Part shown: piece by piece, positions 58 through 62,428 of the stretch
Layout: each line of letters begins with the position of its first letter
How positions within the stretch are numbered: the stretch's first letter is position 1
Source of the DNA: Amoebophrya sp. A120
Lineage: Eukaryota; Protista; Dinoflagellata
Assembly (NCBI GenBank): GCA_905178155.1
Contig: CAJINV010000001.1
Location: 5,920,788 to 5,984,787, forward strand
Reading direction: 5' to 3'
DNA length: 64,000 bases
Translations under genes and position numbers: made by a program
The notes under the pieces: model-generated
Told to the model about the DNA's origin: nothing
What the model saw: only the letters and a program-made list of their open reading frames with translations
Database searches by the model: none

Positions 58-1936
58 GTGGACAGAACGAATTTTAATAGTGTGTCTGAGGCGGGCGCGG
101 GGAAGGTCGAGGAAAACGTAAACGTAAACGAGAGCGGCTTCTTATCAAGTCTTGAGAGAACAAGTAGACATGCTGCGGACACTGCTTCACGAGGTGCATG
201 CGGCGAGGAAGCGAAAAGTGATTATCAGCATCCTGTTTCGTGTCGTGCCAGTGAATTTCAGCACAAGGTGGAAGAAAAGATACTTTCGCCGATGAAGCGC
301 GCAAATGGTAAAAATGTTGAATCCGACGGGAAAAAAACAACAGCTCCCGAGGACGACAGTGACATCGCCCACGACACCGTGCACCAACAGCGGACCCAAA
401 CCCTTTATGATCGCTTAATCCGGGTGGGCGAAGCGTCTGGTTGCCCTGGCCTTTCGCGCTTTCTGCACGAGACACGGTCGGCTGCCTGGCTTGGCTGCTT
501 GTCCTCGGGTATCACTGCGTTTTACGACTTCGGAAAAATATGGCGGAAGGCTGACTATAGAAAGCCTGGCGATATTTATCAGCGAGACCAAGAGCGACAA
601 AAACAGGTTGCTGCCGTCGAAGATAATGTTCGCCCCCAGTCGTTAACAGGGAGTGCCACTGGCAGCACGTATTGCGGAACATCCCGAAGTAAAGCCCGCC
701 AAGTCACGAATGCTAGTACCGGGAACAGTTACCACGCAAATCTGCAGTCTGGCATGCCGGGCGTTGTAGCGGAAGAGGATGACCGCATCTGCCTTGACTT
801 CCACGAGAAGGACCTCTGGCTCAACATATCAAAGAAAACGCATAGTGCCCCACGACCAGAAGAGCGGTCTCTACTATACGCAAACTTTCTACACGAAAAC
901 TTTTTGTATCGCATGAAGGGAAACATCATGCGAGCTTCCTTTGGGAAAAACTTCTGCAATACGGAGGAAACACTTCTTCCACGCGCTCGGGGGTGGGCAC
1001 TTTTCCATATGATGCAACACGCTTGCTGTTCCGAGGCGGCTGTCCGACCCGGCCGCGGAGGAGCACTTGCGGCATTGTCTAGCGCTCGCGCGGGCCTTTT
1101 GGCAAGGGTTTTGCATCGCAGGCGAAGATATCAATTGCAAATATGTCTGGGTCTGGAAAAATGCAAGTTTGTCATGCTTGTCTGGCATGACTCATAAATC
1201 TGTAATGCATGAACAGGAAAAGGGCCTCTTGCCTGTCATGCAAACACGCAGTTTGCCATGCGGATAAGGAAACACAGGAGCAGCTGAAAAATTTGTCATG
1301 CTTAGCTGCGTATTGCAGTCCGCCCACTAGTCAGATTTTAGCATCACAAGTTTCCAGACCCAGACATATTTGCATTTGATAGAAGATTCAGAAACCTCGA
1401 CAAACACTTCGACTCCATTGGCCTCTGATGTCCCTGTGGCCTTTATCGTGGGGACAGGCCACGCCACCGGGGAGACCCTGGTGTTGCTCCAAAGCGATAG
1501 AAATTCTAGTTGTACAGCTTTTAGCAAAGCTGTTGACCACGACAGCTCAGGAACTACATCTTGGTCTTCTGACTTTGAAGACATTATCGACACAAGTGCC
1601 ACAACATGCTGGAGTACTGTTGCTTTAGATGTTGAAAAGTCGTCGTATAATAACACGAGCGGGACCTGCTCCGACGATCGTGGCCACAACTTTTGGTTGT
1701 ACGGCAGCCCTGCTCTGGTCCCAGGCGACGGTCGGTTACCAGCAAACAGGATCCTACCTCAGTTCCGGCCTGAAGAATCCAATACAGATAGAAGCTTTAT
1801 TACTGCTAGTTGTGCTCGGAGAAATTTATTACGTACGCTTGAAAGCTCACCTGTGTACGAAACGCGAAACACTCACAGCACTATGCTGAATGACCTTGAA
1901 GTTCTGAATGAAGCGATGATGCACGTAGGCATGTGA
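58..1936 (+). CDS. Hypothetical protein, exon structure uncertain, interrupted by introner 1129-1381
   Basis: Long ORFs 58..1197 and 1370..1936. Removing the introner plus one GAAGA joins ...FCIAGED|SETSTNTS... The junction to the upstream ORF is unresolved and no domain is recognised. Confidence 0.4.
1129..1381. mobile_element. Introner family A1 (253 bp), 5-bp DR GAAGA
   Basis: TIR TATCAATTGCAAATATGTCTGGGTCTGGAAA / TTTCCAGACCCAGACATATTTGCATTTGATA. GAAGA at 1124-1128 and 1382-1386. Similar to 8014 and 27448. Confidence 0.93.
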
Positions 1937-3036
1937 CCTGCCGAGATGACAACTTTCACGACTCCCGATTGTATAGCCTTACCTGAGTCCCCCGTAATTG
2001 TAGGTTTCTGTTTTTTCGACATCAAATTGAATGAATCAATCTCCCATGTGACATAAACCCAGGCCGTGGACTACCATTCATAGTGTAGCCGTGCTGCTTT
2101 GACTTTGGTTCCTTACTTTCGTGTATTAGAACAACCGATGTAGTTACGAGTTTCTAATAGTAGATCCGTATCTCTTGACGTTTACTTGAAACAGAACAAC
2201 GCAGATATTCGACGTATTTTGATTTAGCGATTCAGCTACTGTCTAGAACGAGGGACTAGCAGAACTAGGTCATGAAATGAATCTCGCCCGTGTAGCATTC
2301 TCGATTTGATTCTTGATTCTAGTTGCTAGCTTTGCCTTCGTTTTGGCAAAAGCATGATGTGTTTATGGGTTCGTGTTCGAATTTTCTTTGATACGAAAGT
2401 TTTTTTCACAAATAAGATACAATTCTAAATCAAATGTTGTTTTTTCTTTGAAGGTCGTCGCTTGCTACTCTTCAATTGAAGAGACCGCGCATGATACTCA
2501 AAAAAAAGATAACAGGGACTACTTTTCTACACATATCTTTTCGTGTAATATAGGCCGACGGGTGCAGTAGATGCAGCCTGGCGACGATCGCCATTTCAGT
2601 CTAATGCGTGGCGAGTAGTTCTTTAATATCCGGACATTAGTACACCTACACCGGTGACGAGGCGGGACCTTTGAGGCGCTCTCACCACTTCGGAGGCCAG
2701 TAAATCCAACCCAGCTCGTTCTGGTATCGACGGCCCAAGAACCACGGAAATCCACCCGGGCGTGCTATCCTCCCGAAGAACACTTTGATTTTTTCTGCCG
2801 CAAGTTGTACGCATTACTACTGTCCTTCTAAGTACTAACTTGGAATAAAGAAGTTCTTCTTTGCGGAGCCTTGCGGCGGGGTTAATGTCCGAGTTGTAAA
2901 TCGCGATTCACCTGAGAGCTGGTCAACATAACGGAAGTACTCCTGTCCACCGCCTTGCCAAAAAAGCAGGACAAGTGCTGTGAGTCGCGCGCCATTCTCC
3001 ACCTCACGGCCCACCTGAGACGACGGGTACGGCAAT

Positions 3037-6775: not shown

Positions 6776-8654
6776 ATGCGTCACGAGGTGGAACGGAAGC
6801 GATTCGACTGGAGCGAGCGCATCGAGCGGTCCCGCGTCGACCCAGCCTTTCAGACGGAGCCGGCCGAAAAGATTTTGATGGGCCCGTGGAGCAAAGAGAA
6901 CACCGTCGTCCATGCCGTCTCTCAGCAGCTAGATCCCGTGGTGGCGCAATTTGTCGACTTCTTTGACCTGCCACAGAACCTGCGCGGTAAGACTTGTTTG
7001 CCTGTATTTTTATCCTTCTTTCTTCGAATGACACTAGCTACCGAGGAGTTCTCACCTGCTGCGTTCCGAAAACGGACGCTGCGCTAGTGCGACGAAGGGA
7101 GATTTTCGCCGCCATCCTTGTCTAAGTTAAGTAGCACGATTCGTCTGACATCTTTATCATTTATTTCTGCCACTGCAGGAAAGTTAAAGTATCAACGAAT
7201 CCCCCTTGGAGCATCTGTAGCAAAAACCAAAAAAAAAAATGAATCTACAAATCCAGGCGTGAATCTCGGCTACGCGTTTTTGCACTTTCGGAGCCGCAAG
7301 ATTGCAGCGCGGTTCACGGAGCTCTTGAATGGGATGCGGTGTCCGGGGAAGAGCGTGAAGCGCCTCGAGATGATATTGCAAGGAAAAATCCCCCCTCCCC
7401 ATATTGAAAACGCATCCGTTTGAAAATTTGTGATGCAGATTTGCAACCACAAATCGCACCTGTCTTGCAGGAAGCCAAGCGCAGGCTGTCCGCCACGTTG
7501 TGCAGGCGATTTGTAATGCTGTAAGGACTACCGGGCAGCCGTCTACCATGCTATGCGCCTACACCAAAAGGCCCCTACTTAGGCTTGCGACCTGCGTGCA
7601 GTCCTAGCATTGCAAGACAAGTCTGATTTGTGTATGCAAATCCAGCATCACAGATTTCCTGTTCGATATGGGGAGGGGAGATCTTCCCTTTTGATAGATG
7701 ATGGTGACGACGGCGCGTCGTATCCCCTTTATGGATGGCATGCGGCTGCAAGAGGTGAATATCCAGGAAAAAAACTGTGTAAGTGTAACTTTGTAGGAAG
7801 AGCAGCATCACAAATTCGTTTTGCATTACAGAAAGAACCTGTCATGCGCGGATAGTACGTGAAAACACGTATGAAACACGTCTATGACGCACTTCCAGCA
7901 TGACAAGCGTAACTGTTTTGCATTTTTTGCATCACAGATTTACATCACTTACACAGTTTTTTTCTTGCATAGTGAAGCCGACGCGTACAATGTTTTGGTT
8001 CGACGAGGAACGGTATCAAATGCAGAAACGTCTGGGTCTGGAAGAATGCATGTTTGTCATGCTTGTCTGGCATGACTCGAGAATTTGTGTTGCCTAGGCA
8101 CGAAAAGGCCCTCTTGCCTGTCATGCAAAAACGCAGTTTGCCATGCGGAATACGTAAGACATGGCAGCCAGAAAATTTGTCATGCATAGGTGCGTATTGC
8201 AGTGCGTCTATCATTCACTTTTAGCATTACAAGTTTCCAGACCCAGACACATTTGCAATCCATAAACGATTTCCGGACATTCTGGCCGAGTCCATGTTCT
8301 GTTTGAAGCGACAATCGAACGTCATATCAAATGCAAAAATGTCTGGGTCTGGAAGAGTCGGGGCTTGCCATGCACATTTTGCATGACCCGTGAGGTCCGT
8401 GATGCTGGTGCTAGCATCACAGATTTTTTGAGAGCTTCTTGATGCTAATTACGCATGAGAAATGCCCTCACCGCGTGCCAACAACTGACTCCTCTAGCTG
8501 CTCATGCAACACAGATATTTTTAGAATCCGCAGACAGCATTACAAGTCCCAACCTTCCAGACCCAGACATATTTGCAATCCATACGTCAGCTCACACAAC
8601 AACTCGCTCAACCGTCGCGCCCAGTATCCCGGGCCCACCGGCCGGGGCTGGTAA
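6776..8654 (+). CDS. Mei2-like RRM (RRM_2-type) RNA-binding protein; further 5' exons possible from about 6000
   Basis: GT-AG intron 6987-7256 gives VDFFDLPQNLRGVNLGYAFLHF...FTELLNGMRCPGKSVKRLEM. Removing four introners continues the frame as MVTTARRIPF...EVKPTRTMFWFDEERFPDIL...GRGW*. This resembles the Mei2 RRM3 motif DFxYLP...NxGYAFxNF. Confidence 0.75.
7374..7696. mobile_element. Introner family B (323 bp), DR GATGA
   Basis: TATTGCAAGGAAAAATCCCCCTCCCCATAT ... ATATGGGGAGGGGAGATCTTCCCTTTTGATA. DR at 7369-7373 and 7697-7701. Removal restores RLEM|MVTTARR. Confidence 0.93.
7760..7971. mobile_element. Introner family C (212 bp), DR GTGAA
   Basis: TATCCAGGAAAAAAACTGTGTAAGTG ... CACTTACACAGTTTTTTTCTTGCATA. 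DR at 7755-7759 and 7972-7976. Removal restores EVK|PTRTMF. Confidence 0.93.
8014..8264. mobile_element. Introner family A1 (251 bp), imperfect DR AACGG/AACGA
   Basis: TATCAAATGCAGAAACGTCTGGGTCTGGAA ... TTCCAGACCCAGACACATTTGCAATCCATA. Removal restores DEER|FPDIL. Confidence 0.92.
8325..8584. mobile_element. Introner family A2 (260 bp), DR CGTCA
   Basis: A-type TIR with a different interior, which is the reverse complement of 12021-12275. DR at 8320-8324 and 8585-8589. Removal restores QSNV|SSHNN. Confidence 0.92.
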
Positions 8655-9168
8655 ACAGGGCGACGCGGACCTAGAATTCAATGGTATGATCGACGAACTT
8701 GAAGATGATCTGCTCTTCCTCTTGTTTGTGGCAAAGAAAAATGATTCGTACCGCAGTACTGTACATTTTCGTCGGTACGCGAAAGATGCCGAAGCTGCGT
8801 ATAGGTTCGGCCTGGTCAGCTTTGAGTTGTCCTCGGAGCTGATTATATTAGATATCAACATTCAATATAAAAAAGTTAGGATACTGTACTATTTGAATCT
8901 GCAAGAAGCGAGCCTTGCATTTTTTTTTTGTGTGTCACAAGAACCGGGCCTGGAAGTAATTATAGCCTAGATGTGCTGCCAAGTAGATTCTCTTCACTAG
9001 AAGGACTCAGCACTTTCTCCAACTTCAATTTCACGTATCTGCGCATGATAGATTTAGGTACTGGTTGCAAAAGAAAGACCGACTGCTACGCCGACTGATA
9101 CGTTCGATCAAACTTCGGTTGCATCTTATTTCTTCGCAGATCCAACTGCTACACTTCTATCTTGCAGA

Positions 9169-9962
9169 GCCTTCTTCACTAAACACAGCACCTGAGTGCG
9201 CAGTACAGATGCTGTAGTCACAGAGGAAGGATTGATTGGTGATGCAAGTGCAGCACAAAATACGATATGCGCACGATGAATATCTAACGTTTCGAAATAG
9301 ATACGAAAGCAAGCGTACTTTTTTAGAAAAGGCTCTACCTTCCTCGGTTTTTTTTTCGTTTCGATTTGTAGCTCTCGTTACACCAGCTACGAAAAACAGC
9401 CTCACACGGGGATTCATTGGAATAGCCAGCTGCTACACGATGGTTGCAGTTTTTTTTCGAATAGCAATCATGTGCACCATTTTAGCGTAGGATTACGCAC
9501 AACGAGGACGACCACTGAGAATTTATTTTCCGCAATAAAGTTAGTAGTTAGTAATAGGAATACCTATACCACTTAAATCAGTACGAGTACTTTTTTTTTC
9601 GATTTTAGCCTTGGTCTTGGAGGACGACGAGGAGGAAAGCAACAAATCGCACCGACGAATCTACCGCATAGGGTGGCGAGCTAGGGTGTCTGGCTGCCGC
9701 GCACGGCGTGGGAGTTCGCAGGGTAGGCTGGCTGCTGTGCTGAGCCCGGCAAACCTGACCGCGTCACGTGGGGCGACAGCTCTTTGCTATATCTCTAGGC
9801 TATATGTCCACGGTTATTTTTTGCCTTCTTCTGCTACACACTTATAGCGAGGATCTGGATCGATTGATCGAAGCACTCCGCGCACAATTTTGCCGGCCCC
9901 GCTATCTGCTGATAGATGCACTCAGACGCAGGAGGCGTCTACTTGCCTACTATCTGAGTTAG
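9169..9962 (+). CDS. Possible small multi-exon hypothetical protein
   Basis: Short protein-like segments (QVQHKIRYAHDEYLTFRNRYE; EDLDRLIEALRAQFCRPRYLLIDALRRRRRLLAYYLS*) are separated by AT-rich intron-like stretches. Not fully assembled. Confidence 0.3.
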
Positions 9963-11480: not shown

Positions 11481-13641
11481 ATGTCAGCCACTCAGTGTCC
11501 GGTGGGCACCATGGTGTGGAGCGAATGGACGCCCGGAAACCGCAAAGTCGCTGTGGTTTACGCGTATTACCCCGATACCAACTTCTACCACTTAGATTGG
11601 ATCCACCAACGGGCGTTCTGCCACGATCTTCGCTCTGGTCACGAGAATGAGGACCGGTTCAAGGTGTATTGTCAACGACGACCGTGGCAGGTGCACATAT
11701 TAGATGATGAAGATGAATGCTTGTTATCATTTTTACGACCACGACGATAATTAACGACTTCGAGGATGCAATTCCATTGATACTTACACAGCCCACCACG
11801 ACCTCCAATTTTACTATTTGGTTAGCGCATCGCACGATTCCTCCAGTTTATTACACCACATCAATCGAAATTCCTTTTCCCGATATGAAGATTTTCAATC
11901 GAAAAATCTAGATGTGGCACCACTCGAACCAGAACGCGTGCGGGGCGTTCGAGGGGGGCAGCTCCACCCCGGGCCTGCAACAGGGTGGGGACGACGTGAC
12001 AGTGGACGACGGGAAGGGGGTATGAATTGCAAATGTGTCTCGGTCTGGAAGGTTGCAACTTGTGATGCTGCATTTGGATACTACAAAAATCTGTATTGCA
12101 TGAACAGCAAAAGCGGTCTCGTTTCTGCCACGCCGAGAGGGCATTTCTCGTGCGGTATAGGCATCAGGAAGCTCTCGTCACAAAATCTGTGATGCTAGGG
12201 CATGCATCACAGACGTCAGAGGTCATGCAAACTGTGCATGACACCTTCCACACCCAGACATGTTTGCATTTAATAGGGGGTGTTCATCGGGCTGGGCGTT
12301 GCCATCGCGATTGTCTCCGCGTTGTACCTGTGCTACAAGTGGTATGGATGTGTCAGAATCGAAATTGACAAATATCGAAAACTTTGTGATGCATAAAATC
12401 GATACCAGTTGGGGCCTCAGTTTCCAAGTGGCGCATGACAAATTTCGGGAGCACCCAAATCCAGTCTGTCGTGCTGTTTGGACAAAGAAGACTGTTCCTG
12501 CCATGCTACTCTGGCAGCGCATTGCATACCCCTAAACAGGCTTACAATCGGTCTCAGTTGCCTGCTCCCCAACACAGGCCTTCAGTGCCCTGCATTTTAT
12601 GCATCACAAGTTTTTCGATTTTGTCGATTTCGATCCTGACACATCCATAAGTGGGCCCAGGGGGTCGTGCGGGAGAAGCACATGAAGGAGCATGGGGAGT
12701 ACCCGAAGAAGCGGACATCGTCGTTCCAGTCGCCGGGCAAGTCCGGCGGGTGGACGGCGTGGATGAAGGACGCGAGCTTCACCTGGAACAAAACCATGTC
12801 ACCCTGGAAGTCGTTTTCGCCGCAAAAGGACCTGGACAACCACGACGGTATTGCGCCCGGTGGTCACGCTCACGGGGGAAGCGCGAATAAACGGGATTCA
12901 TACAATCGCGGGCCGTCGCTGTGGGAGCTGGCGCAGCAGGAGTACGGCGGCCAACAGGTTGCTGGAGCAGAATTTCTACCGCAGCACCCTGGGCAGCTTC
13001 AACTCCAACACCCACAACTTCTGAACACTAGCGAGCACGAACTTCCCAACAAGAAGATGAACGGGCGCATAAGCAAAGGCACTGGAGGTGCAGCAGTTTC
13101 TGCGGCGGGACCGCCCCGCGACAGTCGTCGGCCTAGTCAGAACAAGCTTTACGGTGGGGGAAGTACTCACTCGATCGGGTCAACGGCCGCCAGTGCGACC
13201 GCATCTTCCGCGGCCCCAAGTGCGCGCGGCGTGTACAACAACAATCCGCCGTTGCCGAGTCCGAACTCGATGGAAGTCGTGTCTGTCGATTCTGCGGTCA
13301 CCCCCCGACACCCGGGCTTGGCGATCCTGAATCCCCTGAAACTGTTCCCAACCGACGAGGAAACCAAGCGGGGGTACAAGTTTCCAACCGGAACATCTTC
13401 AAGGCCAACTGGTGCAACTACTACTTCCCAACCAGCGTCTCGCCGCCCAAGCGTGGACTCGCAAATGAGCCGACAATCCGCGCAGATAAATCAGCGGCCG
13501 AGTAATCGGGTGGCGCCGGTGCCGCCGGGCGCTGCATCAACCGGAACAAGCACCTCCGCCTCTCGCCGCCCGTCACAAAACACCCAGCTACGCAATGGTG
13601 CGTTATCGTACCACGTGGCAAACAAATACGCGGTGCGCTAA
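11481..13641 (+). CDS. Hypothetical single-pass membrane protein with low-complexity tail
   Basis: GT-AG intron 11691-11911. Removing two introners rebuilds ...DDGKG|VFIGLGVAIAIVSALYLCYKW|AQGVVREKHMKEH..., a hydrophobic helix leading into ORF 12667..13641. Confidence 0.75.
12021..12275. mobile_element. Introner family A2, reverse orientation (255 bp), DR GGGGG
   Basis: TATGAATTGCAAATGTGTCTCGGTCTGGAAGG ... CCTTCCACACCCAGACATGTTTGCATTTAATA. Its reverse complement aligns with 8325-8584. Confidence 0.92.
12343..12649. mobile_element. Introner family D (307 bp), DR AGTGG
   Basis: Imperfect TIR of about 55 bp, TATGGATGTGTCAGAATCGAAATTGACAAA... / ...TTTGTCGATTTCGATCCTGACACATCCATA. Close copies at 43988 and 62168. 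Confidence 0.94.
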
Positions 13642-14460
13642 GAAGCTCGATTGGCGCAATTTATGATTTCTTCCGAATGTTTCAGCTCTACTTTTTTGTG
13701 TACGATAGGTATACTACAGCAGATTTCCACAGGTTTTATTTTCGTAAAGAGCAAGGCTTTTTAACCACGTTTGTTTGATGAAAGCATGATAAATCGTAGA
13801 AATTTATTTGGAAATTAACGCACCACAACACTAGGATGGGCAGCGATACTCGTGATTCTACATGCACCTTCTTGAAGCCGCATTTCAGTACTACCACCGG
13901 CTACAACGCAAGGTACTGAGAAAGCCTATTCGCGGAGACGCTGCCAAAAAGGTACACTAGAAGGAGCCATCGTCGTATACATTGAAACTGCATGTCGACA
14001 TAAAAATGAATTCAAATAAAAATAATAAGCGAGCACCGGAACACGCTCTCCTCTGCCTACAAGAAGTAGCGGGCTTTGGAACAGCCCTGTCGTATTTTCC
14101 TTATCTTACTATGGCAGAAAGAGAAACACAAGAACGCCTTTTGGTTTTCCTTTCGGACCCGTACAGTAGAGAGCGTCGTCGCAAATCGGCAAACAAATTT
14201 CAAAGTTGCATAAGGAGGATGGAAACAAATATGTGAGTTTGCGAAAGCACGTGGTAGGTCGGAAAAGAAGGTGGTGCACAAAATGACAGTTTCTTGAGAG
14301 AACAAGCACTTGGCAAAAAAGCTTTCTGATGCCCCCTGACATCGCTCATTTGGGAAGGAAAAAAAAAACACGCGAATACTTATCAACTCAGCAACTGATT
14401 TTGCATCCTCCCACGCGTATCTATTCGGATTAAGCCTTTATTCCCATCGTGAAAGCGGCC

Positions 14461-26014: not shown

Positions 26015-26117
26015 GCGTCGTCATCTCTGTGACATTCGCCTCCGGCAGCGCGCTCATCACTGAATTTTTTGTAATGTGTCATACGCACTAGAAGTAGTCT
26101 CAGCAGAGTTCCAAAGG

Positions 26118-40967: not shown

Positions 40968-43900
40968 ATGTCAGCAAGATCCGTGTCCCCGGGGAGCCGC
41001 CCGTACGCCCGGGTAGCTTGGAACCCAATTGGCCCGGGCCCTTTTACCCCGCGACTGCAGTATCCGGGTGTGATGACGACCACACCGCGGGGTGTTGTGA
41101 CCTCCACAACCATTGGCGGTGAGTGCCTGCTGGATATTAATGCGAAGATTTTTTAAATATGAATTTTTTCGTTTGTCTACTCTGGTTTTTTTCGTGTGAT
41201 CCGCACAGACCACAAGGACAGAAACCGGGTGTGCTCACAGTACTACTGAGCAGGTGAAATAATCCGATTGGCGTGTTTCTATCAGGTTCTTCCAGTATTC
41301 CGCTCGAACAGGCGGTGGCTTCGAAGATTTTGGCGCAAGCATCGGGTGCCGCGCAGACGCAGTTCGCAGCTGCGCCGGTTGTTTGGACTTCAGCGGCGAC
41401 GAGCGCCACAACAACGAAGTCGACCACGGCGTCCTCTGGGCCAACCAGTTTCGTTCCAACCAAGGTATACTCCGTTCCGGCGCACTACCAGGCGGCCAGC
41501 AGCCTGGCTACGCCGCGAGTGTCGACGCACCAAGTCGTCGGCTCGATGGTGGTGCCACAGCAGCACACGGGCAATCATTCGTCGACGCTGGACAATTCTG
41601 TGGTATCCGTGGCGTCCGCCCGTGGGCGGCGCGATGCAAGCATCAGCGCCACGTTGCGGACGCGGAGCCAGTCCGTGGCCGACCGCTTTGCCATGACGGA
41701 CCTGGACCGGAGCCTAATCACACCGACGTATAGGAATATCGGGGTCCCTGGCTTGTGCGGCAGCTCGCTGGTGAAGCCAGGAACGACCAGAGTGATCGTG
41801 GTAGAGAGGGAATAGTTTCGAGTTTTCTTGCTACTATGCTATGGTCACATGATCTTCCATCAATTCCGTGAAAACGGGCCTCATGTCGTTGTAAAAGAAA
41901 CTCTGACTGCTCGTCATTCTTGTAAAATTTTTGTCAACCAGAACCAAAAATATTGCACAGCGGAAGAGCGAGACGCGGGCGGCTTCTCCGGCACCGACAG
42001 TCAGTGTGTCCGTGCCGACAGCGATTGCGGTGCCACATACCTCGAGCACACGCGTCGCAACTACAGCGGCCACAGTGGTCGTGCCAACAAACTCTAGTAC
42101 CATACCCCACTCGCAGCGCATGGCGTCCACCATTTCTGAGCTGCCGACCCGCGCCTATCACAGCATGAAGTTGGCAAACGGCACCGAGCTCCTTGCCGCG
42201 GCAGCAACAGGTTCTTCGGGGGCTAGTGCCACGACCTCTTCCGCAGCGTGTACCACCACGACTGCTACAACCCCTTCCCGTGTCGTGGTGCCAGCGTCCT
42301 CAGGAGGACCTCCGGCTTCGGCCTACAACATTGTCGAGCCCACCGTTCTTGTGCAGCAGGGCGCGAGCAGAGTGGATGTCGAGGACAAGCAAATGCAGAA
42401 ATTCATGGAAATGAATCAAGGCCACCACCCAGGTGGTGCGGTGCAGCAGTCGACGTCTCTCACCTCCGACAGCACGACAGGGTCTTCGTTGCCTGCGACT
42501 AACCACTATCCACAAGAAACTTCCCGTACACGTACAAATGCAATCTCTGCATGACAAAACTTGCCTTCAATCCTAGTCCAGCATGACAAGTTGGACTCTG
42601 CAAGGTAGCGAAATTTGTCATGCATTTTGTACATGTACAGGAAATTTACATTGCATAACCACGTCTCGAGTTTGGGCAGCGACAAGCAGGGTTTGTCCTC
42701 TCCCGCCATGGTCATGGATACGTCCGCCGTGGAGAAGCACGAGTCTCGCTTCACCTCCGTGGAGGTTTCGCAAAGCCCCGTGCAGCCCGCAGTGAAAACT
42801 ACCAGCAGCTGTGCCTATTCCCCCGACGGCGCGCCGCTCCTGGCCGAAATTGATCTCTTGCGCTCCGAACTGGTCAAGGAACAGAGCGCGCGCAAGCACC
42901 TGGAAGGTGAAATGCACAAACTCGAAGCGCAGGTAGTGCCTAAGATAGATTTAGACCGACGTTCAGGGACGGCTAAGATGTTAATAGCGTTGTACCAGGA
43001 GACTGGATGGACTTTTTCACTTGTTATTTCCAGCCTTGAATGTAAGCCAAGGTTTATTTCAACTGGATCCTGCTGATGCTGAATAAGAAATTGCGCAGCT
43101 GGCTAAACTTTCTGCGGAGTTGGCGTCCAAAGACCTGGGTGGGTCCTGCTCAGGCAGTAAGAGCGAGAAAGAGCACCAGGGGACCGCGAGTACTTCCCTC
43201 TCGCCCACGTCGGCACGAGGGGCCGCGCATACTCATCAATTCACAGACGAAGCAGATTTGGAAATTCAAAAGTATTAAATAGCTGTTATTTGGTGGTTCG
43301 TTATGAGGTTGTGTATTGAAGAATAGATGATACTTGCTCGTTTATTACCCCGTTTTGTTGGGTAATACTACTACTACTACTGTACTCGCGCACTAGGTAG
43401 AAGTCGTAGAATAGATAAAAGCGTCGCCACTTCTTCACACTCTCTCTTCGCGTTGATACATGCAAAAGGACCTCCATGTTCTGAAAACACTTGAGGTACG
43501 TGAAAAAGAATCCCGATTTTCCCTACGCGATCGAGAAGATTGGGCGGGGTCAGTATGTGTTCGGGAAGGAAAAGAAGGAGGTTTTCAAGCGCGGGGCGGC
43601 GCTGCTCGTGCGGGTGGGCGGCGGTATTACAGTGAAATATGCCCCCTCCCCATATCAAAACGGAAATCTGTGATGCAGATTTGTGGTCACAAATCAGCTT
43701 TGTGATGCTGGAAGGCAAAAGATGCGGACTGTAGTGCTGCCTAGCGTGGGAAAGCCTTGCAGCTCCAGGATGACAGGAGGCAACTGGAAGTGGAAAAAAG
43801 CATGACAGATTACCTGTAATTTGGGCCGCAGCTTCGTCTCTTGGCCTTCTAGCAATACAAGTCGATTTGTGTACTCAAATACAGCATCACAAGTTTTCGC

Positions 43901-47254: not shown

Positions 47255-50200
47255 ATGGCCTACGCCTTGCAACATCAGCACCCGTCGGTTTCGCGGCAGT
47301 CCTCCCGAGCGGCGCCACCGCCCGTGGTTCGACAGATTTCCCTCCAGACACTATTGAGAGGAAAAATCTCCCCTCCCCATATTGAAAAGGTATGTTTCCA
47401 AAAATTTGTGTTGCGCATTTGAGGTCACAAATCACATCTGTCTTGCAAGAAGACAAGGGCAGAAGCTTCCGCCCCATTACGAAAGCGATTTGTCATGCTG
47501 TTGGGCCCAAAGGGGGGACGTTTGCCATGCTGAAATACTAGACCCATACGCCCCTACCTAGCCCGGGGATCTGACCGCAATGCTTTCCTGCAATACAAAT
47601 CCGATTTGTGTACTCAGATCCAGCATCAGAAATTTCGTTTTGATATGGGGAGGGGGGATTTTTCCTTTTGATAGACACCGGGGCAGCTGGTGCAGCCGCG
47701 GATCGGTCTCGGGTTTGACCTAAACTCCCTGCGTCGCATATCCTGTGTAAAAATGTACCCACACCAGAGTTGTCATGCGACTTTGCCATGACAGGAACAT
47801 TTGTGATGCGCAACCCCATGACAGGCATTTTCAATCGTGTTTGGGAACTTGTAATGCTGTAAACAGGATTAGCAGATCGATTTGTGATGCGGCTTTCCTT
47901 GCTACCTTGCACTACCTTACGGACTGAAACTTGTCATGCGTGACTCACAAAGCTCCTAGGTTTGTGTTGCAAAATCCCCATCCTGACTCCGGTGTGGGTA
48001 CGTTTTTACTCAGGATATCGCACCGGCTACAGTCAAGATGGCGCAACAAGTTCTGCGCACATGGGACAGTCGCCCGGCGCTACGGGATCTTTCAATGCAG
48101 GCACCTCGTCAACAACAGCAACCGCGTTGCCGGGAGGCAGCAAGCAGAGCTACTCCTCTGCGACCGCGGTATACTCTCGAAATGAAATATTTGTTTCTGC
48201 AACGTGGAGGAGAAGTATTCTGAACTTCAGTAGTATACTTACAGAAAAGGCCGTGCACCTCGTCGTTAGTTTCCCTTTCCACAGGCACTAAGCATCTGAC
48301 GTCTCATTCGCTTCTTCTTGGAGGGGCGAAGATAAATGTCTTGATCTAAAGCGGCCCGATAAAATTAGACCACCAACTCATCTTGCACCTACAGATGTCA
48401 GTCCCTGTGCAGGCGAGCGTCCCACGGAGCGCCATCAGTCCCGGGTGGGTCCGAGGCACCACTCCATTATTGAGAGGAAAAATCCCCCCTCCCCATATCA
48501 AAACGAAGTTTCTGATGCTCGATTTCCGTACACAAATCAGGGCTGTCTTGCAGTACAGGATTGGAGGCATATGCCGTGCCTGAGTGCAGAGCTTCTGACG
48601 TGGACGCTTAGCATCACAAATGCCTATGCTGTAGCCCAGGTAGCATCACAAACCGCCCGCATAGTGCGGCGGAGACTGTAGAGCTGCCTTCTTGCAAGAC
48701 AAATGTGATTTGTGACCTCAAATCAGCAACACTCACAAATTTGCGGAGACGTAGCTTTTCAATATGGGGAGGGGGGATTTTTCCTTTCAATATCCATTTG
48801 AACAGACACACAACACGATCGAGAGCACCGGAAAGAGTTCCATGCCCGAGCACCCCTTCGTTCAACGAATGCAAAGCGCGCACCAAATGTCCCAGTTGGC
48901 GTACCCGCAGGTCACGCTGTCCCTGGATCGCAGTGTTCGTCCCCAGGCTGGCATAAATCCGGCCACTCCTGCTTCGCAGCAGGTGCAGGTGCAGACAACC
49001 ACTTCGGCCAGCAGTAGCAGTCGCGGCGGGTCTTTTGTGGACCAGGCAGCATTTCATCTGCAGCAGCAGTCGCGGTTTCACAGCACCGGAACGACGTCGA
49101 CGCAGAATAGACCCGCAACGGTGCTGACCACGGCGGCCGGCGCCGGAGGTCCTATGAAGGCCTACACGCCAACCGCGGCGATGGAGCAGGCGTATTTCGA
49201 TAATCGCACGATTAGTGACGTGGAGCGCATTGATGTGCGGCTGTTGCAAAAGGACCGAACCAAAGAGGCTGGCACGCCCAATAGCGTCTTTCGCCGAATC
49301 AGTGCTTCGAGCGGCATCGGCAGTGCAGCTGGAGTTGGTGCTGGTGTCAACGTTTCGCAATCTGGTGCGCCGAGCTCCTTGCTAAAGCCGGTGCTGATAC
49401 ACCAGCAGCAGGAAAATTTATCGCAAAGCGCGTCGAAAAAAACGTCCGCACAAGAAACGCTGCTCCGACAACATGCCGCTTCCCAGCCAAGCCAGCTAGG
49501 ACGTGGAGGCACGTCCTCTACTTCCTCCTCCGCCGGGCCAGCCACACGAAGTCAGAATATACCTGTAGCGGCTGTGGTGTCAGCAACCGAACCTCTAAAC
49601 ACCTCAGACGTGGTGGTTTTGGAGGTACTTGCTTAATATTCAGCAAACAAACATTAGAATGTCAATGTATCGACACGTAGAGCAAACGCCATAGGGTGCA
49701 ACCTGTAAGCATCGTACAACAGGAGGTTTGATATGTGAAAGAACTCATCGGGTAGATAAAATCTGGAGCCACAAACTGAATCTGAAACCAGGCCCAGCAA
49801 TCCTCTATTGCAGCGGACCAATCGTCTACCGTGAACCTGCTAGATCAATTTGGGGTCTCCCAAAGTGCGAGCAATTTGCACGCTGATCTCCGGGACACAT
49901 CTGGGTTACTACTACACGATGCTCCTCCGCCGCCAACGTTGCAGGTGAATCTCACAACCGCACCAGCGGCGTCGCGCGGCTCTCTGCCGCCCCACCGAGC
50001 CGCCGCGGAGCCGCGGATGTCCATGGAGTCCTCTCCGGAGCTATGCGATGTAAATTTCCTAGACATGTACAAAATGCATCACAAATGTCGCTACCTTGCA
50101 GAGTCCAACTTGTCATGCTGGACTAGGATTGAAGGCCAGTTTTGTCATGCCGAAACTGCATTTGTACGTGTACGGGAAATTTACTGTGGATAGGAGCCTA

Positions 50201-53200: not shown

Positions 53201-55516
53201 GTGGCGCTGCCGCGGGCGGGGTTCCTCATCTGCGGGCTCATCACAGCAGAGTACAGTGTATTCAGCCACGAAAATCTGCAAAACGCAGATGTGCCTCCCG
53301 CAGGACCTGGTCCGAAAGGAGCTACGCCGGGCCGACCACGCGGCACGCCGCAACAAGAGTTTACTGCCTTTCTCGCACAGGTATAGTACTACAAGAGCGA
53401 TTTGCGTTATTTGCAGTTTGCCGTTTTTTTTCAATTTGTACAGGAGTCGCTGTTGATCTTGATGTTGTTGTCATCTTCAAAGAAGCATATGAACTTGATT
53501 CGAATCAATTGGATTGCACCAGAGCCGAATTACATTTGTCAAAGTAAGTCGGTCCTTCCTCCCAACCACCACGATCGCTTCGGCGCGGCAAGAGAAATAT
53601 GATGACCACTTTCCATTGAATGTTTGAATTTGATACACGTCAGATACGAGTCGACGTACTCTTACTTCTTGCTCCGGAAGCACGCCGGCGTGGAGTTGCC
53701 GGTTTTTTGGACCCGGGTCGAACACACGAACGGCGTCGAGTTCGAGAATATGCATCGCAAAAGTATCGTACCAATAGAAATCGCGTGACAGAATTTCCTG
53801 AGCGTGAGAAATGGAATGCGTAGTAAAAAACTGAGCTAGTGACGAACAAGATGCGGATGCATGACTGCGATTAGTACGAGTGCGATACTTTTGCAGTGTC
53901 GATAGAGAAGTGGCTTAGCGAGATCGTGCGCCAGCTCCTGAAAGCAGTTGCCTTTCTGCACCAGGAGCGCCTGGTGCATGGCAACATTTGTCCCAGCACC
54001 GTCATCGTCGACGACCACCAGGGCCGGGCGGTTCCCGCGGTTGCGCTCGCAGAAACTGGGCTCACCGCTCTCTTTCGGCATCAGGTATTTGATAGAGAAA
54101 CATTTTTTCTTTGTATAGGGTTAAGTAGTCTTAATAGTTTTTGAAAGTCATCAGAGTTCATCTGGTTCGAAATGAACGCCGCAGTTCGGCGGCACTGGAG
54201 CTGCAGCGCAAGTTTCCATGAGCAGGGGCGCAAAATCCGATACTGGTAAAGATTGTATCTTGTTCGTGGTACAACTCAAGAACAACTACAGGAGCAACAT
54301 GGAAGTTTCTCGTGTAAAGTAAGATATCCACCCTCCACAAAATTTAGGAAACTTGGGCACTGTCCTCGGGTTTGGACGCGGTTTGCGAAGCTGGCGAAGT
54401 AGTACCCCGTGGGGATCATGCACCATCAGGGGACCTCCACGGAGGCACGCCAAGCCGTTTTGACGCAAGTGCCAAGGGAGACATCTGGTCCCTCGGGGTG
54501 GTCTTCTACCAGTTTCTCACCGGCAAGACGCCGCCATTTTCCCCGTCGTCTCCCTCTGCAGAGCATGGCAAATCCGCCGATCTGATCGCCGATCTGAGTC
54601 AGTGGTCCAGCTTGAAGCACATTTCGCCCCTGGCCAGCTCGCTTTGCAGTTTCATGCTTTCCAAGGACAGTAAAACGCGGCCGAGCGCGCGGCTCTGCCT
54701 GCAGCACGATTGGTTTCGCTACGCGGAGCGGCTGACGACAAATGGGCCACCGACCGGCTCGCCGACGGCGGACCAGGCGTTTTCACTCATGAAGCCGAAC
54801 TACGTCCGCATAGGAGACCTGGAAATCCGGCTGCGCGGGGCCATTCGGGCGATCGCGTGGGAGTTCCCTTTTCCCATCCCGATTGGGGCGGTGGACGCCT
54901 GCACCCGGTTTGAGGAGCTGGTGGACTTTGGGCTCTCGCCGGACACCACGGACGCCGTGGCCCAAATGATCCCTGGCACCCTTCTCGAAGACCCCATTTT
55001 CGTCCGCCATTTGATTGGCGCCGCACTCACCATCAAGCTGAACGAGCTAGACGAGGTATGATAGCACTCCGGAAATCGTTGTATACAGAAAAAATTTTAT
55101 TGCTGTACTAGTCGGCTTCAGTGCTACTTCTATCAAGAATCGTGAGTACCTACTGTGTCTGGTTCGACAAATTGTGATTGACGCTGGATATGCTAGTGGA
55201 ATGTCACGATGATGAATCTGAGTGTGTGCTGTGTGTGAGCATGTTGACGCGGTCCCTCTCTCTTTACTAGGTTTTGTCGACGATATTCGGTGCCGTGCCA
55301 CCGTACGAAGAGATAGCGGTGGGGGAGCTGCTGCAGGAGCTCGAGGCCGTCGAGGTTGAGGATCTCGACGCCGCGCGCGCGAATCTGATGCAGTTGTTGC
55401 AGCAACAAGAGAGCCTCGAGGTCCGAACCACCTATCAGTGGCTGCGGTCGCACATGTGCTCCGAGCCCACGGGGGATTCCGAAGAGTTTCATCTGGGTAC
55501 TTCCACCGAGCTGTAG
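47255..55516 (+). CDS. Large protein with low-complexity N-terminus, EF-hand and degenerate Ser/Thr kinase domain (CDPK-related pseudokinase)
   Basis: EF-hand RFDYDGDDKLTFEEFQEM. Kinase subdomains QLLKAVAFLHQERLVHGNICPSTVIV, LAETGL, GDIWSLGVVFYQFLTGKTPPF, RPSARLCLQHDWF. Upstream exons join in frame through GT-AG introns and four introners. Confidence 0.72.
47352..47673. mobile_element. Introner family B (322 bp), DR GACAC
   Basis: TATTGAGAGGAAAAATCTCCCCTCCCCATAT ... ATATGGGGAGGGGGGATTTTTCCTTTTGATA. Removal restores SLQT|PGQLVQ. Confidence 0.93.
47739..48017. mobile_element. Introner family F, reverse orientation (279 bp), DR TCGCA
   Basis: TATCCTGTGTAAAAATGTACCCACACC ... GGTGTGGGTACGTTTTTACTCAGGATA. 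Removal restores SLRR|TGYSQD. Confidence 0.93.
48468..48792. mobile_element. Introner family B, reverse orientation (325 bp), DR TCCAT
   Basis: B-type TIRs with the interior inverted relative to 47352 and 7374. Removal restores GTTP|FEQTHN. Confidence 0.93.
50042..50192. mobile_element. Introner family H, reverse orientation (151 bp), DR GGAGC
   Basis: Reverse complement of 42507-42657. Removal restores SSPE|PMDMSS. Confidence 0.93.
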
Positions 55517-57157: not shown

Positions 57158-58842
57158 ATGCGGAAGGCGATCCAGTTCTTCGTGGCCGCTGCGGCGCTGC
57201 ACGTCGAGGCCGTGAAAGTTGAAGTGGATATATCCTCCGTGAAATCCCCATCGCCCTCAATTTGTCATGCACGTGCGACACAGTTGAAGTTTTTATGATT
57301 CTACCACCAGTGCATGATCATGACCATGAGATGAAGCATGGATTTCGGTATGAGTCGCAATATCCACCAAAATTATGATGGTGAGGGCGATGGTTTTGCA
57401 CAGCATAGCACACGCGGAAGAAAATCGATGTCGACACGACAACCGCGAACAAGAAGACCCTGGTGTATCACATCAAGAATTGTTGTACTTCCCCTCAGCG
57501 TCAGATGAAAAACTGAAAAGTTTGTTATGGAGAGTCCAAAAGAAACAGAAACAGGAACAGCTGTATGGTGGATTGGCACGACTTGGCTGCACTAAGAACC
57601 TTTAGAATTTCTAGATACGAGCACCCGATCCAAAATGCAATCCTTCACGTGTAATTACAGTATACTCGTCTGGGTCGACCAGTAGAAGTTAGTAACTCTA
57701 ACTCCAACTCACACAGAAAATCAAACCAAAACATTTCGTTTCGGTGCAATTGCAGCTCTTTCGCACAAGAACATGGCAGGAAATTCTGAAAGAGCCGCTG
57801 CACGACACTGCGGATATACGGTTAGAATCAGACGCAGATGTGAAATTGCGCTGCTCCTCGGTAAGTGGGAAGCGACATTTTCATTTGCTTTGGCTTTCAG
57901 CTTTCTGAAACCAGAAGACTCAGTTTGCATTCTGTACTTTTGCATGCGTACTACTGGCGTTATCTCTCCTAGCAAGCTGACGTCTGTCCAGGCGAGCTCG
58001 TGCGAAAGTGTGGCGCATATTCAGGAACTGCTCTGCTTTGAGGTGGGAAGTAATTTCAATGTGATAAAGGGGCGGACAATATGAAAGCGAAAAGTCTCCG
58101 GCCTTCCGAACGCACGGAATTGGAAGTTTGGGATGCATGATGAAAAATGTAAATGGTTCTGTAGTTTTAGCTGTACACCTACACGTATACAACGCAGTAT
58201 GAATGATCTGGTGTTTGAAGATGGGAAGGGCGACGTGTGCTCTAGTGAAAGAAAACTTTGAATGGAGATCAGACGAACACAAATGTATCTGTATGGCATT
58301 CACATTGTTTCCAAGTACAACAAATAGTTTCACTATCCTTCCTTGGCAGCTGTGTGTGGTGCGGGCTTCAGGCCCGAACCACTTCATCCCTCGTCCTAGG
58401 AGAGGAGGACTTGTGTAAGTGCTTCCTCTTCAAATCCAGTAGTAGAACGGCGTACGATCGTCAGGGACTTTTCACCTTGATAGAGAAAACGAATACCAAG
58501 GGAAAGGATGGCGGTTGCTGCGGTGAGGAAGAGGTCATGTGCAAGGACATTGCGAAAGGCGATCGGGCAAAATGCGATGAAGGCCAGGAATGGTACAACG
58601 GCGGAAAAATGCCGAAACACGTATGATAGTGGACAATTTTCCTTCCCCCTAGTAGTAATTTGTGACGCAAATAAGTACCAAATTTACATACCGCCCAATT
58701 CAGGATGATTGTCTCGGACCCTGGGCCTGCCCCGCAAATGAGGGGGAGGGGGAACTGTCCAACATCATAGGACGACGAAGGCGACACGGATAAGCACAAA
58801 AAGTATTGCTGTAGGAAGAGCACGTCCTTCATGTGCTGCTAA
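57158..58842 (+). CDS. Possible small secreted Cys-rich multi-exon protein
   Basis: Signal-like MRKAIQFFVAAAALHVEA. Later segments DGGCCGEEEVMCKDIAKGDRAKC and HKKYCCRKSTSFMCC*. The exon chain is not fully resolved. Confidence 0.4.
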
Positions 58843-61321: not shown

Positions 61322-62167
61322 ATGAAGCCGAAAGTGCGGTCGTTCCTGAGCCCTCTGGTGGTCGTCGTCCTGGGCTCGAGCCTTTTATTCCTCGCGACCG
61401 ACGCAACCCTGAACTTGGACCCCCACGCAGTGTCAAAGCAGATCCAGGATCAAAGGGACCGTGTGTTTGTGGACGTAAAGTTTGTCGAAGCGTTGCCATA
61501 CTACCGCGGCATGGTACAATTTATAGAAATAGTGCTGGTCAACTTATATTTGTGCTGCTGCGTAGGTGCTTTTATTTCTTCTAAAGTCATTCTGTGGTTT
61601 TGCTGGTCTACAGACTAACTGGAGTATAATTGTCTCCATTTGGAATGCTATAGATACTAGTCCTTGTGCTGGAAAATAAGTCGAAAAATAGCTCCACTAA
61701 CCAATTAAAAACAGAAACTCCTGCCCAGTGGCGAGTTGCGGCGCGAGGTACAGCGGACGGATCAGAAGATTTGCTCGAGCGTGGACGGACCGCAGTGTTT
61801 CCAGGACCAAATGCTCGGCGTGATTCCCCCCTCCTTGGTGCGCAACGTGGAGCGGCCGGGCGGCCGCACGGCGGGCGACGAACAGCAACAGCACGTGAGC
61901 GACGTGGACCTGAACACCCTGCACCAGATTACCAGTCTGACGGGTGCGGAAAAGCTGCCGATCGGCACGCGGGAGGCCTACCCGCCCTCGCTGCCCCCTG
62001 CAACAACTTCTTCTAGAAGTAGCGCAGGAGCGGTGGACAACAACATGAACGCTCTTGATCAACATGTGGGAGCTGCAGACCAAGACCAAGTCGATCAAGA
62101 TTATGCGTCAACATCTTCCTCGACATCGTCATCAGTTTCCAGCAGCAAATACGGGCTAGTTTCCGCA
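61322..62167 (+). CDS. Hypothetical signal/anchor-bearing protein, 3' part disrupted
   Basis: MKPKVRSFLSPLVVVVLGSSLLFLATDA; ORF 61736 runs into the family D introner at 62168. The exon junction between them is uncertain. Confidence 0.4.
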
Positions 62168-62428
62168 TATGGAAGTGTCAGAATCGAAATTGACAAAATC
62201 GAAAAATTTGTGATGCACAAAATCGATACCAGTTGCAGCCTCAGTTTTCAAGTTGCGCATGACAAATTTCGGGAGCACCAACATCCAGTTTGTCATGCTG
62301 TTTGGGCAAAGAAGACTGTTCCTGTCGTGCTACTCTGGCAGCACATTGCATACCCCAAAACAGGCTTCCAATCGGTCTCATTTGCCTGCTCCCCAATACA
62401 GGCCTTCAGTGCCTTACATTTCATGCAT
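62168..62428. mobile_element. Introner family D, truncated or interrupted (45-bp right arm missing); left DR CCGCA
   Basis: Colinear with 12343 and 43988 up to ...TTTCATGCAT (62428), then unrelated sequence. Confidence 0.88.

What the first reader, a model, noticed from the sequence alone, without database searches (positions are those of the whole stretch)
1129..62428. Multi-family introner system: TAT...ATA TIR elements with 5-bp direct repeats acting as non-canonical introns
Seen: 19 complete elements and 1 truncated element in about 9 families (151, 171, 209-212, 251-260, 279, 306-307, 321-325 bp). Every complete one begins TAT, ends ATA, has 25-55 bp imperfect TIRs and a 5-bp DR of variable sequence, and lies in an apparent coding exon; I found none between genes. 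Deleting the element plus one DR restores a continuous frame, including conserved motifs (GAS2 VRVGGG, the Mei2-like RRM C-terminus, a TM helix). For 13 of 19 the removed length is not a multiple of 3, so removal must be precise. Known: IR/DR-bearing introners with non-canonical ends were reported in Amoebophrya (Farhat et al. 2021, BMC Biology); to my knowledge the removal mechanism is unresolved. Inference: these are non-autonomous DNA transposons with 5-bp TSDs. Their ends match neither Transib (CAC) nor LTR (TG..CA) termini, and no transposase is present in this window.
Basis: partly seen in the sequence, partly recalled or inferred. Interest (0 to 1): 0.92.

Follow-up and report, generated by a model that had tools for sequence, protein, structure and literature searches.

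The report
Amoebophrya hairpin transposons acting as introns
These are the already published jumping-DNA introns of the marine parasite Amoebophrya A120: short elements with mirror-image ends sit inside coding exons and are missing, together with one 5-base repeat, from RNA-derived sequences where this could be checked, likely by a still unidentified hairpin-guided cut-and-join step.

Summary
All 19 elements are present (18 with a perfect 5-bp repeat, one 4/5), against 0 in 30 controls, and four more were missed.

The window is Amoebophrya sp. A120 (99-100% protein hits). These are the introner elements of Farhat 2021, who gave the TAT-N7-AAA end. Gozashti 2025 lists one A120 family with a 5-bp TSD and TA/TA termini.

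RNA-derived contigs skip element plus 5 nt at 2 sites, while the DNA run keeps both. Public protein models do the same at 7 of 7 further sites.

From 640 kb of a related assembly:
- The repeat is 5 bp in 259 of 346 end pairs and never 6 bp.
- Removed length is indifferent to frame.
- Larger families lie in both orientations at about 1:1.
- GT/GC-AG or AT-AC is possible at only the chance rate (21 of 205).
- A shared internal motif, TGTNATGC, occurs in 230 of 239 elements.

Best reading: non-autonomous transposons, likely inserted by an integrase-type enzyme and removed from RNA by a hairpin-guided step. No transposase was found and the cut register is unresolved. Verdict: already known, with useful constraints on an open mechanism.

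The parts
1129..1381 (.). Element, 253 bp, 251-260 bp family, repeat GAAGA
   Evidence: open frame after removal; not checked in RNA or a model
7374..7696 (.). Element, 323 bp, 322-325 bp family, repeat GATGA, in the RRM gene
   Evidence: junction peptide exact in model P0003
7760..7971 (.). Element, 212 bp, repeat GTGAA; opposite orientation to 26730
   Evidence: junction peptide exact in P0003
8014..8264 (.). Element, 251 bp, imperfect repeat AACGG/AACGA (synonymous difference)
   Evidence: junction peptide exact in P0003
8325..8584 (.). Element, 260 bp, repeat CGTCA; opposite orientation to the other four family members in the window
   Evidence: junction peptide exact in P0003
12021..12275 (.). 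Element, 255 bp, repeat GGGGG
   Evidence: open frame after removal
12343..12649 (.). Element, 307 bp, repeat AGTGG
   Evidence: an X5 contig starts matching at 12649 with 426 letters lying elsewhere (indirect)
21157..21477 (.). Element, 321 bp, repeat GGCGA; skipped with one repeat (326 nt) in RNA-derived contigs; a GC-AG register is possible
   Evidence: joint 21151-21478 in X3 and X5, absent in X1; registers
26730..26938 (.). Element, 209 bp, repeat TCCAC; skipped with one repeat (214 nt); no canonical register
   Evidence: joint 26724-26939 in X3 and X5, absent in X1; registers
27448..27699 (.). Element, 252 bp, repeat TTTGG
   Evidence: open frame after removal
27867..28145 (.). Element, 279 bp, repeat GCAGT
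   Evidence: open frame after removal
28649..28819 (.). Element, 171 bp, repeat CAAGC
   Evidence: open frame after removal
42507..42657 (.). Element, 151 bp, repeat ACCAC
   Evidence: junction peptide exact in P0002
43625..43945 (.). Element, 321 bp, repeat GGCGG; 93% identical to 21157 in the opposite orientation; interrupts a GAS2-like motif
   Evidence: junction peptide exact in P0002
43988..44293 (.). Element, 306 bp, repeat TGCAT
   Evidence: junction peptide exact in P0002
47352..47673 (.). Element, 322 bp, repeat GACAC
47739..48017 (.). Element, 279 bp, repeat TCGCA; opposite orientation to 27867
48468..48792 (.). Element, 325 bp, repeat TCCAT; opposite orientation to 47352 and 7374
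50042..50192 (.). Element, 151 bp, repeat GGAGC; 92% identical to 42507 in the opposite orientation
53749..53904 (.).
   Evidence: Pkinase hit at 54348-55058
57231..57407 (.). Likely older element, 177 bp, repeat decayed to 3/5 (GGATA/GCACA); removal plus 5 nt keeps a frame open
   Evidence: no RNA or model support
58080..58482 (.). Likely older element, 403 bp, repeat 4/5 (GACAA/GAGAA)
   Evidence: no RNA or model support
58622..58769 (.). Likely older element, 148 bp, repeat 3/5 (ACACG/GGACG); removal continues a Cys-rich frame
   Evidence: no RNA or model support
62168..62428 (.). Truncated copy of the 306-307 bp family lacking its right end; reads in frame with the ORF 61709-62491

Best explanation
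These are the introner elements of Amoebophrya A120: short repeated elements with TAT...ATA mirror-image ends and a 5-bp flanking repeat that lie in coding exons, were likely inserted as non-autonomous DNA transposons by an integrase-type enzyme making a 5-base staggered cut, and are likely cut out of the pre-mRNA with one repeat copy by a hairpin-guided endonuclease-and-ligase step rather than by splice-site letters. SHOWN: the anatomy; the host genome; net loss of element plus 5 nt in RNA-derived contigs (2 sites) and public models (7 sites); presence in DNA; both orientations; no enrichment of canonical splice pairs. INFERRED: that the repeat is a target-site duplication, that the mobiliser is integrase-like (from termini and TSD class only), and that the TGTNATGC motif and TAT-N7-AAA end are binding and cutting signals shared by all families. 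PREDICTED: the two ends pair in either orientation and bring the exon ends together. UNTESTED: the enzyme, and where within the 5-nt repeat the cuts fall. Identity with the published elements is about 0.97 likely and RNA-level removal about 0.9; the confidence below is for the whole chain including a non-spliceosomal step.
For: Host: 99-100% hits named Amoebophrya sp. A120. RNA: X3 and X5 skip 326 and 214 nt with 5 ambiguous letters, in the same contigs as 8 listed GT-AG introns; X1 shows neither joint, and its single-copy contigs (about 42-44x) run from exon into element. The joined 20380-25817 transcript is open for 1162 codons; with the element kept it stops at 203. Models: 7 of 7 junction peptides exact; paralogue P0004 aligns across the four RRM junctions at 62% identity with 3 gaps. 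TSD: exact 5-bp repeat in 259 of 346 end pairs chosen without a repeat requirement, 2 at 4 bp, 0 at 6 bp; 231 distinct repeats among 259; removed length mod 3 = 90/85/84, p 0.89. Termini TAT..ATA in 229 of 240 in a terminus-blind scan. Orientation relative to the host strand 47:60, 16:14, 11:15, 7:9, 7:8, 6:7, 5:3, 3:4, all p of 0.25 or more. Canonical register possible in 21 of 205 against 19.0 by chance; G after the final ATA 56 of 205, background level, p 0.54; branch-point-like words no commoner at the sense 3' end than at its mirror. Inner end stem predicted paired (mean probability 0.73-1.00) in 38 of 38 element-strand folds. Farhat did not detect U1 snRNA in A120.
Against: No enzyme was identified: 0 of 115 long ORFs from the related loci hit a transposase or integrase family, four viral scans found nothing, and Farhat found no transposase in A120. 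G-U-compatible end mismatches are not clearly favoured over A-C (229 vs 198, p 0.15; inner part 130 vs 101, p 0.065), so selection on RNA pairing is not shown. The outer end positions 4-10 are only 68% complementary and the terminal 3 pairs are predicted unpaired in some elements. Symmetric ends also present any spliceosomal signal in both orientations, so orientation independence does not exclude the spliceosome. All RNA evidence comes through reverse transcription; X3 and X5 are one sample and are RNA by guess; the public models come from a transcriptome-based pipeline and are probably not independent of such data.
Confidence: 0.5

Rival explanations
1. The same transposon-derived introns are removed by a modified U2-type spliceosome that reads signals inside the symmetric ends. 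One option is a 3' site T-A-N (final TA of the element plus the first repeat base, a relaxed YAG) with the 5' cut 4 nt upstream of TAT, the hairpin standing in for U1.
For: Nearly all spliceosomal proteins and U2, U4, U5 and U6 were found in A120. In Fritillaria, TIR-transposon-derived non-canonical introns need the U2 spliceosome. Symmetric ends supply the same signals either way round. The same transcripts carry ordinary GT-AG introns.
Against: No excess of G at the position that would give TAG (56 of 205, p 0.54), no excess of canonical pairs (21 vs 19.0 by chance), and no 3' branch-point asymmetry; CTAAC lies near the 3' end in 4 of 239.
Confidence: 0.35
2. The joints are reverse-transcriptase template switches across a hairpin flanked by short repeats, and in the cell the elements stay in the mRNA, with the genes dead or rescued by ribosome bypassing between the matched repeats.
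For: A hairpin flanked by short homologous repeats is a demonstrated substrate for false introns, about 30% of cDNAs in one yeast case. All RNA data here pass through reverse transcription.
Against: The element interior has depth of at most 13.6 at 21268 against 836.3 for the joined contig in X5, and 6.8 against 159.4 in X3 (contig depths, rough). Two thirds of insertions shift the frame with no avoidance. Host frames stay conserved beyond the insertions (paralogue). Four elements within about 400 nt of one coding region would need four bypasses.
Confidence: 0.06
3. The elements are excised from a working DNA copy of the genome before transcription, as ciliate internal eliminated sequences are.
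For: The geometry (element plus one repeat removed, TA-type ends, orientation-blind) is what a transposase-like DNA excision would give; the ciliate comparison is recalled, not from a call.
Against: X1 shows no joined form at either site and unbroken single-copy contigs run from exon into element. Contigs drop rare variants and only one DNA-like run was laid, so a stage-specific copy is not excluded.
Confidence: 0.05

Closest known systems
Amoebophrya A120 introner elements (Farhat et al. 2021, PMC7789003)
   Same: Same genome; ends begin TAT + 7 variable nt + AAA; 3-5 nt direct repeats, 5 bp in the Fig. S19 legend; many families; RNA-supported removal; no internal transposase; mechanism open.
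   Different: No difference in kind. The paper gives IRs of 8-20 nt and variable repeats; here the ends are about 26-35 bp or longer and the repeat is uniformly 5 bp and abuts TAT...ATA. Orientation independence and the TGTNATGC motif were not in the text I read; its figures could not be seen.
A120 introner family 38 (Gozashti et al. 2025, PMC12130899)
   Same: Listed as TIR DNA, '5-bp TSD, TA/TA Termini', with ORFs similar to Copia/Gypsy elements.
   Different: About 810 bp; the window's elements are 148-403 bp. The paper's automated TSD calls for other A120 families range from 2 to 6 bp and most are of unknown superfamily. I could not compare sequences.
IS3EU/GingerRoot DNA transposons
   Same: TA..TA termini and no target sequence preference.
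   Different: Their TSD is usually 6 bp; here 0 of 346 have 6 bp. No transposase was available to compare.
Euglenid nonconventional introns
   Same: Variable borders, paired ends, short direct repeats, suspected MITE origin, unknown non-spliceosomal machinery. This is the best functional analogue.
   Different: The Euglena signature N3CDG...CHGN5-6|R is present in 0 of 205 in any register; unrelated lineage.
Fritillaria borealis non-canonical introns
   Same: TIR-transposon-derived introns with TSDs in most genes.
   Different: They have preferred end pairs (AG-AC, AG-AT) and need the U2 spliceosome; here no pair is preferred.

Membership tests
Amoebophrya A120 introner elements | Located in the A120 genome | tested here: met
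   Three window queries hit proteins named Amoebophrya sp. A120 at 99-100%
Amoebophrya A120 introner elements | Inverted repeat starting TAT, 7 variable nt, then As | tested here: met
   TAT in 38 of 38 ends; A at positions 11, 12, 13 in 32, 33, 38 of 38; definition
Amoebophrya A120 introner elements | 3-5 nt direct repeat at the boundaries | tested here: met
   5 bp exact in 18 of 19 and 259 of 346 in related loci
Amoebophrya A120 introner elements | Repeated in families | tested here: met
   13 clusters and 20 singletons among 258 elements
Amoebophrya A120 introner elements | Removed from transcripts | tested here: met
   RNA-contig joints at 2 of the 8 elements in the laid stretch (only 15 of 395 joints were displayed); 7 of 7 in public models
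IS3EU/GingerRoot | TA..TA termini | tested here: met
   229 of 240 TAT..ATA plus 6 TAY..RTA variants
IS3EU/GingerRoot | 6-bp TSD | tested here: not met
   0 of 346 at 6 bp
IS3EU/GingerRoot | IS3/integrase-like DDE transposase in autonomous copies | not testable with these tools
   No genome held; none among 115 ORFs scanned
Ginger1/Ginger2 | TG..CA termini | tested here: not met
   definition
Ginger1/Ginger2 | 4-bp (Ginger1) or 4-5-bp (Ginger2) TSD | tested here: met
   5 bp fits Ginger2 as given; one search gives 6 bp for Ginger2
Transib | CAC..GTG termini with 5-bp TSD (recalled, from no call) | tested here: not met
   Termini are TAT..ATA
U2/U12 spliceosomal intron | GT-AG, GC-AG or AT-AC in some register | tested here: not met
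   2 of 19 in the window (GC-AG); 21 of 205 in loci, chance 19.0
U2/U12 spliceosomal intron | Branch point near the 3' end | tested here: inconclusive
   No asymmetry between sense and mirror ends, which symmetric ends could mask
U2/U12 spliceosomal intron | Lariat excision, snRNP dependence | not testable with these tools
   Needs experiments
Euglenid nonconventional introns | N3CDG...CHGN5-6|R signature | tested here: not met
   0 of 205
Euglenid nonconventional introns | Ends paired in RNA | tested here: met
   Predicted only: inner stem pairing 0.73-1.00 in 38 of 38 folds
Ciliate-type internal eliminated sequence | Excised form present in DNA | tested here: inconclusive
   Absent from run X1 at 2 sites, but contigs drop rare variants and one run was laid

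The most novel reading that the evidence does not exclude
Amoebophrya A120 runs a second, non-spliceosomal splicing system that recognises a transposon end (TAT-N7-AAA, inner stem, TGTNATGC) in either orientation and cuts with a fixed 5-nt stagger regardless of exon sequence, even after the repeat has decayed. It would make any insertion of this transposon group into an exon harmless, and all families would be moved by one unclassified integrase-type enzyme with TA..TA ends and a 5-bp TSD.
Probability: 0.4. Interest if true: 0.8.

Novelty: already known. Interest (0 to 1): 0.33.

Why it matters
The system is remarkable but published. What this check adds are constraints on its open question, how the elements are removed. 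One fixed geometry (element plus exactly 5 nt) holds across families. The elements work in either orientation, show no selection for splice-site letters or reading frame, and share one internal motif. Copies with mismatched repeats at 57231, 58080 and 58622 would reveal the cut register from single cDNA or direct-RNA reads. If the removal step is non-spliceosomal it would be a second such system beside the euglenid one, and a possible sequence-independent removable cassette.

Tried and rejected
Whole-genome work was not possible: no genome is held and the related contigs are not held as searchable records.

RNA joints were obtained for one 20-kb stretch only, and its table showed 15 of 395 joints. 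Direct RNA evidence for the other elements, for opposite-orientation siblings and for mismatched repeats is therefore open.

Cut register, three attempts, all uninformative:
- The 8014 mismatch is synonymous.
- The 34 imperfect repeats in the loci gave no polarity.
- A search with the exon between 58080 and 58622 found 0 proteins.

Autonomous partner, not found:
- Three long elements with 5-bp repeats (1104, 834 and 631 bp) have no convincing long ORF.
- 115 of the 339 ORFs of 180 aa or more were Pfam-scanned (chosen by composition and size) with no transposase or integrase hit.
- Four viral-contig scans gave 0.
- The metagenome scan covered 12 of 64 parts and one family's end only.

Other negatives: Rfam found 0 matches in the window. 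The G-U versus A-C test was not significant. An apparent G bias in the window's repeats (9 of 19 at position 1) vanished in the larger set (56 of 205). Per-element strand calling was too noisy and was replaced by locus-level calling. Three look-ups of earlier scan findings returned nothing.
Full report
OBSERVATION. A scan for a 5-bp repeat directly flanking TAT...ATA with at least 15 of 25 end matches found 18 elements of 151-325 bp. Dropping the repeat requirement added 8014-8264 (4/5 repeat), and self-BLAST showed the truncated copy at 62168-62428. The strict scan gave 0 hits in 30 of 30 Markov controls. For 13 of 19 the removed length is not a multiple of 3. Searching with ends from related loci and reading the sequence added four complete elements: 53749-53904 with a perfect repeat, and three with decayed repeats at 57231-57407, 58080-58482 and 58622-58769. 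The last three have no RNA or model support.

WHERE IT COMES FROM. Three exon queries returned proteins named Amoebophrya sp. A120 at 100, 99 and 100% identity. Farhat et al. 2021 (PMC7789003; I read the abstract, passages, sections 11, 12 and 16, and supplementary figure legends, not the figures) describe A120 introner elements whose inverted repeats start with TAT, then 7 variable nt, then at least three As. They have 3-5 nt direct repeats, number 29,850 copies in 1,954 families, and have no transposase in A120 and an unknown splicing mechanism. The window's ends fit: TAT in 38 of 38, and A at positions 11-13 in 32, 33 and 38 of 38. Gozashti et al. 2025 (PMC12130899; passages, and parts 15-17 of 33 of supplementary file 8; files 13 and 14 not searched) list most A120 families as TIR DNA of unknown superfamily. 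Family 38 is given as '5-bp TSD, TA/TA Termini' with Copia/Gypsy-like ORFs. The system is therefore already known.

REMOVAL FROM TRANSCRIPTS. Four runs were laid on 7300-27299. X3 and X5 (one sample; RNA by guess, but their contigs lack 8 listed GT-AG introns) skip 326 nt at 21151-21478 and 214 nt at 26724-26939, each with 5 ambiguous letters: element plus one repeat. X1 shows neither joint; its single-copy contigs at about 42-44x run from exon into element, and element interiors collect depth in the thousands to tens of thousands, consistent with many copies (not a copy number). Depth inside 21157 was 13.6 (X5) and 6.8 (X3) at 21268, against 836.3 and 159.4 for the joined contigs. Only 15 of 395 joints were displayed, so the other six elements in the stretch were neither confirmed nor contradicted; two X5 contigs stop matching at the right edges of 8325 and 12343 with more sequence lying elsewhere. 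Joining exons along the joints gives 1162 open codons; keeping the element stops the frame at 203. Public models P0002 and P0003 contain the exact junction peptide for 7 of the 7 elements they span, and paralogue P0004 aligns across the four RRM junctions at 62% identity with 3 gaps. These models come from a transcriptome-based pipeline, so they are probably not independent of cDNA evidence. 21157 could be read as GC-AG; 26730 has no canonical register. Their opposite-orientation siblings 43625 and 7760 are removed in the models.

ANATOMY IN A LARGER SAMPLE. A family end used as a pattern fetched 149 loci (639 kb) of one assembly, JACKZZ01, from 12 of 64 parts of the collection. Its elements are up to 96% identical to the window's; whether it is the same strain is unknown, and it has no RNA check. 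Of 370 end pairs picked without a repeat requirement, 346 were 600 bp or shorter. Of these, 259 had an exact abutting 5-bp repeat, 47 had 4/5, 16 had 3/5 and 24 had fewer; exact 4-bp and 6-bp repeats occurred 2 and 0 times. There were 231 distinct repeats among 259, and removed length mod 3 was 90/85/84. A terminus-blind scan of loci and window gave TAT..ATA in 229 of 240 pairs with a 5-bp repeat and TAY..RTA variants in 6.

HOST-STRAND ANALYSIS. Host strand was assigned by a codon model for 78 of 149 loci (239 elements; the rest were left out), agreeing with Pfam strand in 13 of 13 assigned loci, a 14th being unassigned. In host orientation, repeat composition matched the flanks and the two ends had the same profile. 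A canonical pair was possible in 21 of 205 against 19.0 by chance (95% range 11-28). The eight largest families (of 13 clusters, plus 20 singletons) lay in both orientations, from 47:60 to 3:4, none departing from 1:1. TGTNATGC or its complement occurs about 7 times per kb inside the window's elements and 0.05 per kb outside, and in 230 of 239 elements of the loci. End positions 4-10 are 68% complementary and positions 11-28 are 88% (TAT and A13 were required by that finder). All 19 elements fold more stably than shuffles on both strands (z -2.3 to -14.0, only 12 shuffles each), with the inner stem paired in 38 of 38 folds and the terminal three pairs variable. 197 of 239 fell in predicted coding segments, a partly circular figure.

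HOW IT LIKELY WORKS. Insertion (inferred): a repeat of fixed length and random sequence is what a staggered double cut leaves, and shared bipartite ends with a subterminal motif suggest one enzyme for all families. TA..TA termini point to integrase-related DDE transposases. IS3EU/GingerRoot have such termini but 6-bp TSDs; Ginger elements end TG..CA (PMC10045372 and PMC6839031, passages). The elements are not filed under either. No enzyme was found. Removal (net result shown, mechanism inferred): it must be precise and efficient, because frame is not respected at insertion. It does not lean on exon-side letters. The paired ends work either way round. I put a hairpin-guided endonuclease-ligase step at about 0.5, as proposed for Euglena (PMC12501133, passages), although the Euglena signature itself is absent (0 of 205). 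A modified spliceosome, as in Fritillaria (PMC11282704 and bioRxiv 2025.08.15.670264, passages), is about 0.35. Against my reading: G-U-compatible mismatches are not significantly favoured (229 vs 198, p 0.15), and symmetric ends would serve a spliceosome equally in both orientations. Template switching is a real hazard for this architecture (PMC2923612, passages) but fits poorly with near-complete skipping and conserved downstream frames. DNA-level excision was not seen in the one DNA-like run laid.

NOVELTY. Already known. I did not find orientation independence, the absence of splice-pair selection, or the TGTNATGC motif in the passages read or through searches. Farhat's Figs 3 and S19-S25 could not be seen and may show part of this, and most subscription papers are not in the library. 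A diplonemid paper (PMC12621601, passages) was read for comparison only. Interest 0.33: a striking, published system to which this check adds testable constraints.

Noticed in passing
window 8324-8356, run X12: Raw RNA reads from another sample under the same species label cover essentially none of the window's exons but 96 reads were laid, nearly all on this 32-nt element end, with one foreign flank on each side. A divergent genotype appears to carry the same end in a transcript that keeps it.
   Followed up: no
window 61709-62491: The truncated copy at 62168 lacks its right end and reads in frame with the upstream ORF, a possible case of an element becoming exon; predicted to be kept in mRNA.
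   Followed up: partly
window 57159-58840: A likely secreted, Cys-rich gene holds three older elements whose repeats have decayed (3/5, 4/5, 3/5) while removal of element plus 5 nt still keeps frames open; no protein was found in the representative library.
   Followed up: partly
window 14434-19829: Adenylate/guanylate cyclase gene: the frame is open from 14434 (1624 codons) but the public model P0001 starts at 16837, so it may be truncated.
   Followed up: no
window 20380-25817: Well-covered 1162-codon transcript with a hydrophobic N-terminus, coiled-coil-like stretches and a thrombospondin type 1 domain; possibly an adhesive secreted protein.
   Followed up: partly
window 35755-38547: 931-codon ORF built of degenerate tandem repeats with strong A skew and no Pfam hit.
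   Followed up: no
L021:505-1608, L029:632-1465, L058:3862-4492: Long elements (1104, 834, 631 bp) with TAT...ATA ends and perfect 5-bp repeats but no convincing ORF; L021 has GC-rich internal repeats.
   Followed up: partly
loci L001-L149: Position 5 of the end is never T (0 of 478 ends) and position 4 is almost never A (2 of 478), although positions 4-10 often differ between the two ends of one element. Exon pieces between neighbouring elements can be as short as 21 nt.
   Followed up: no
window 62769-62886: Short direct repeats of about 50 bp at 82% identity near the window end.
   Followed up: no
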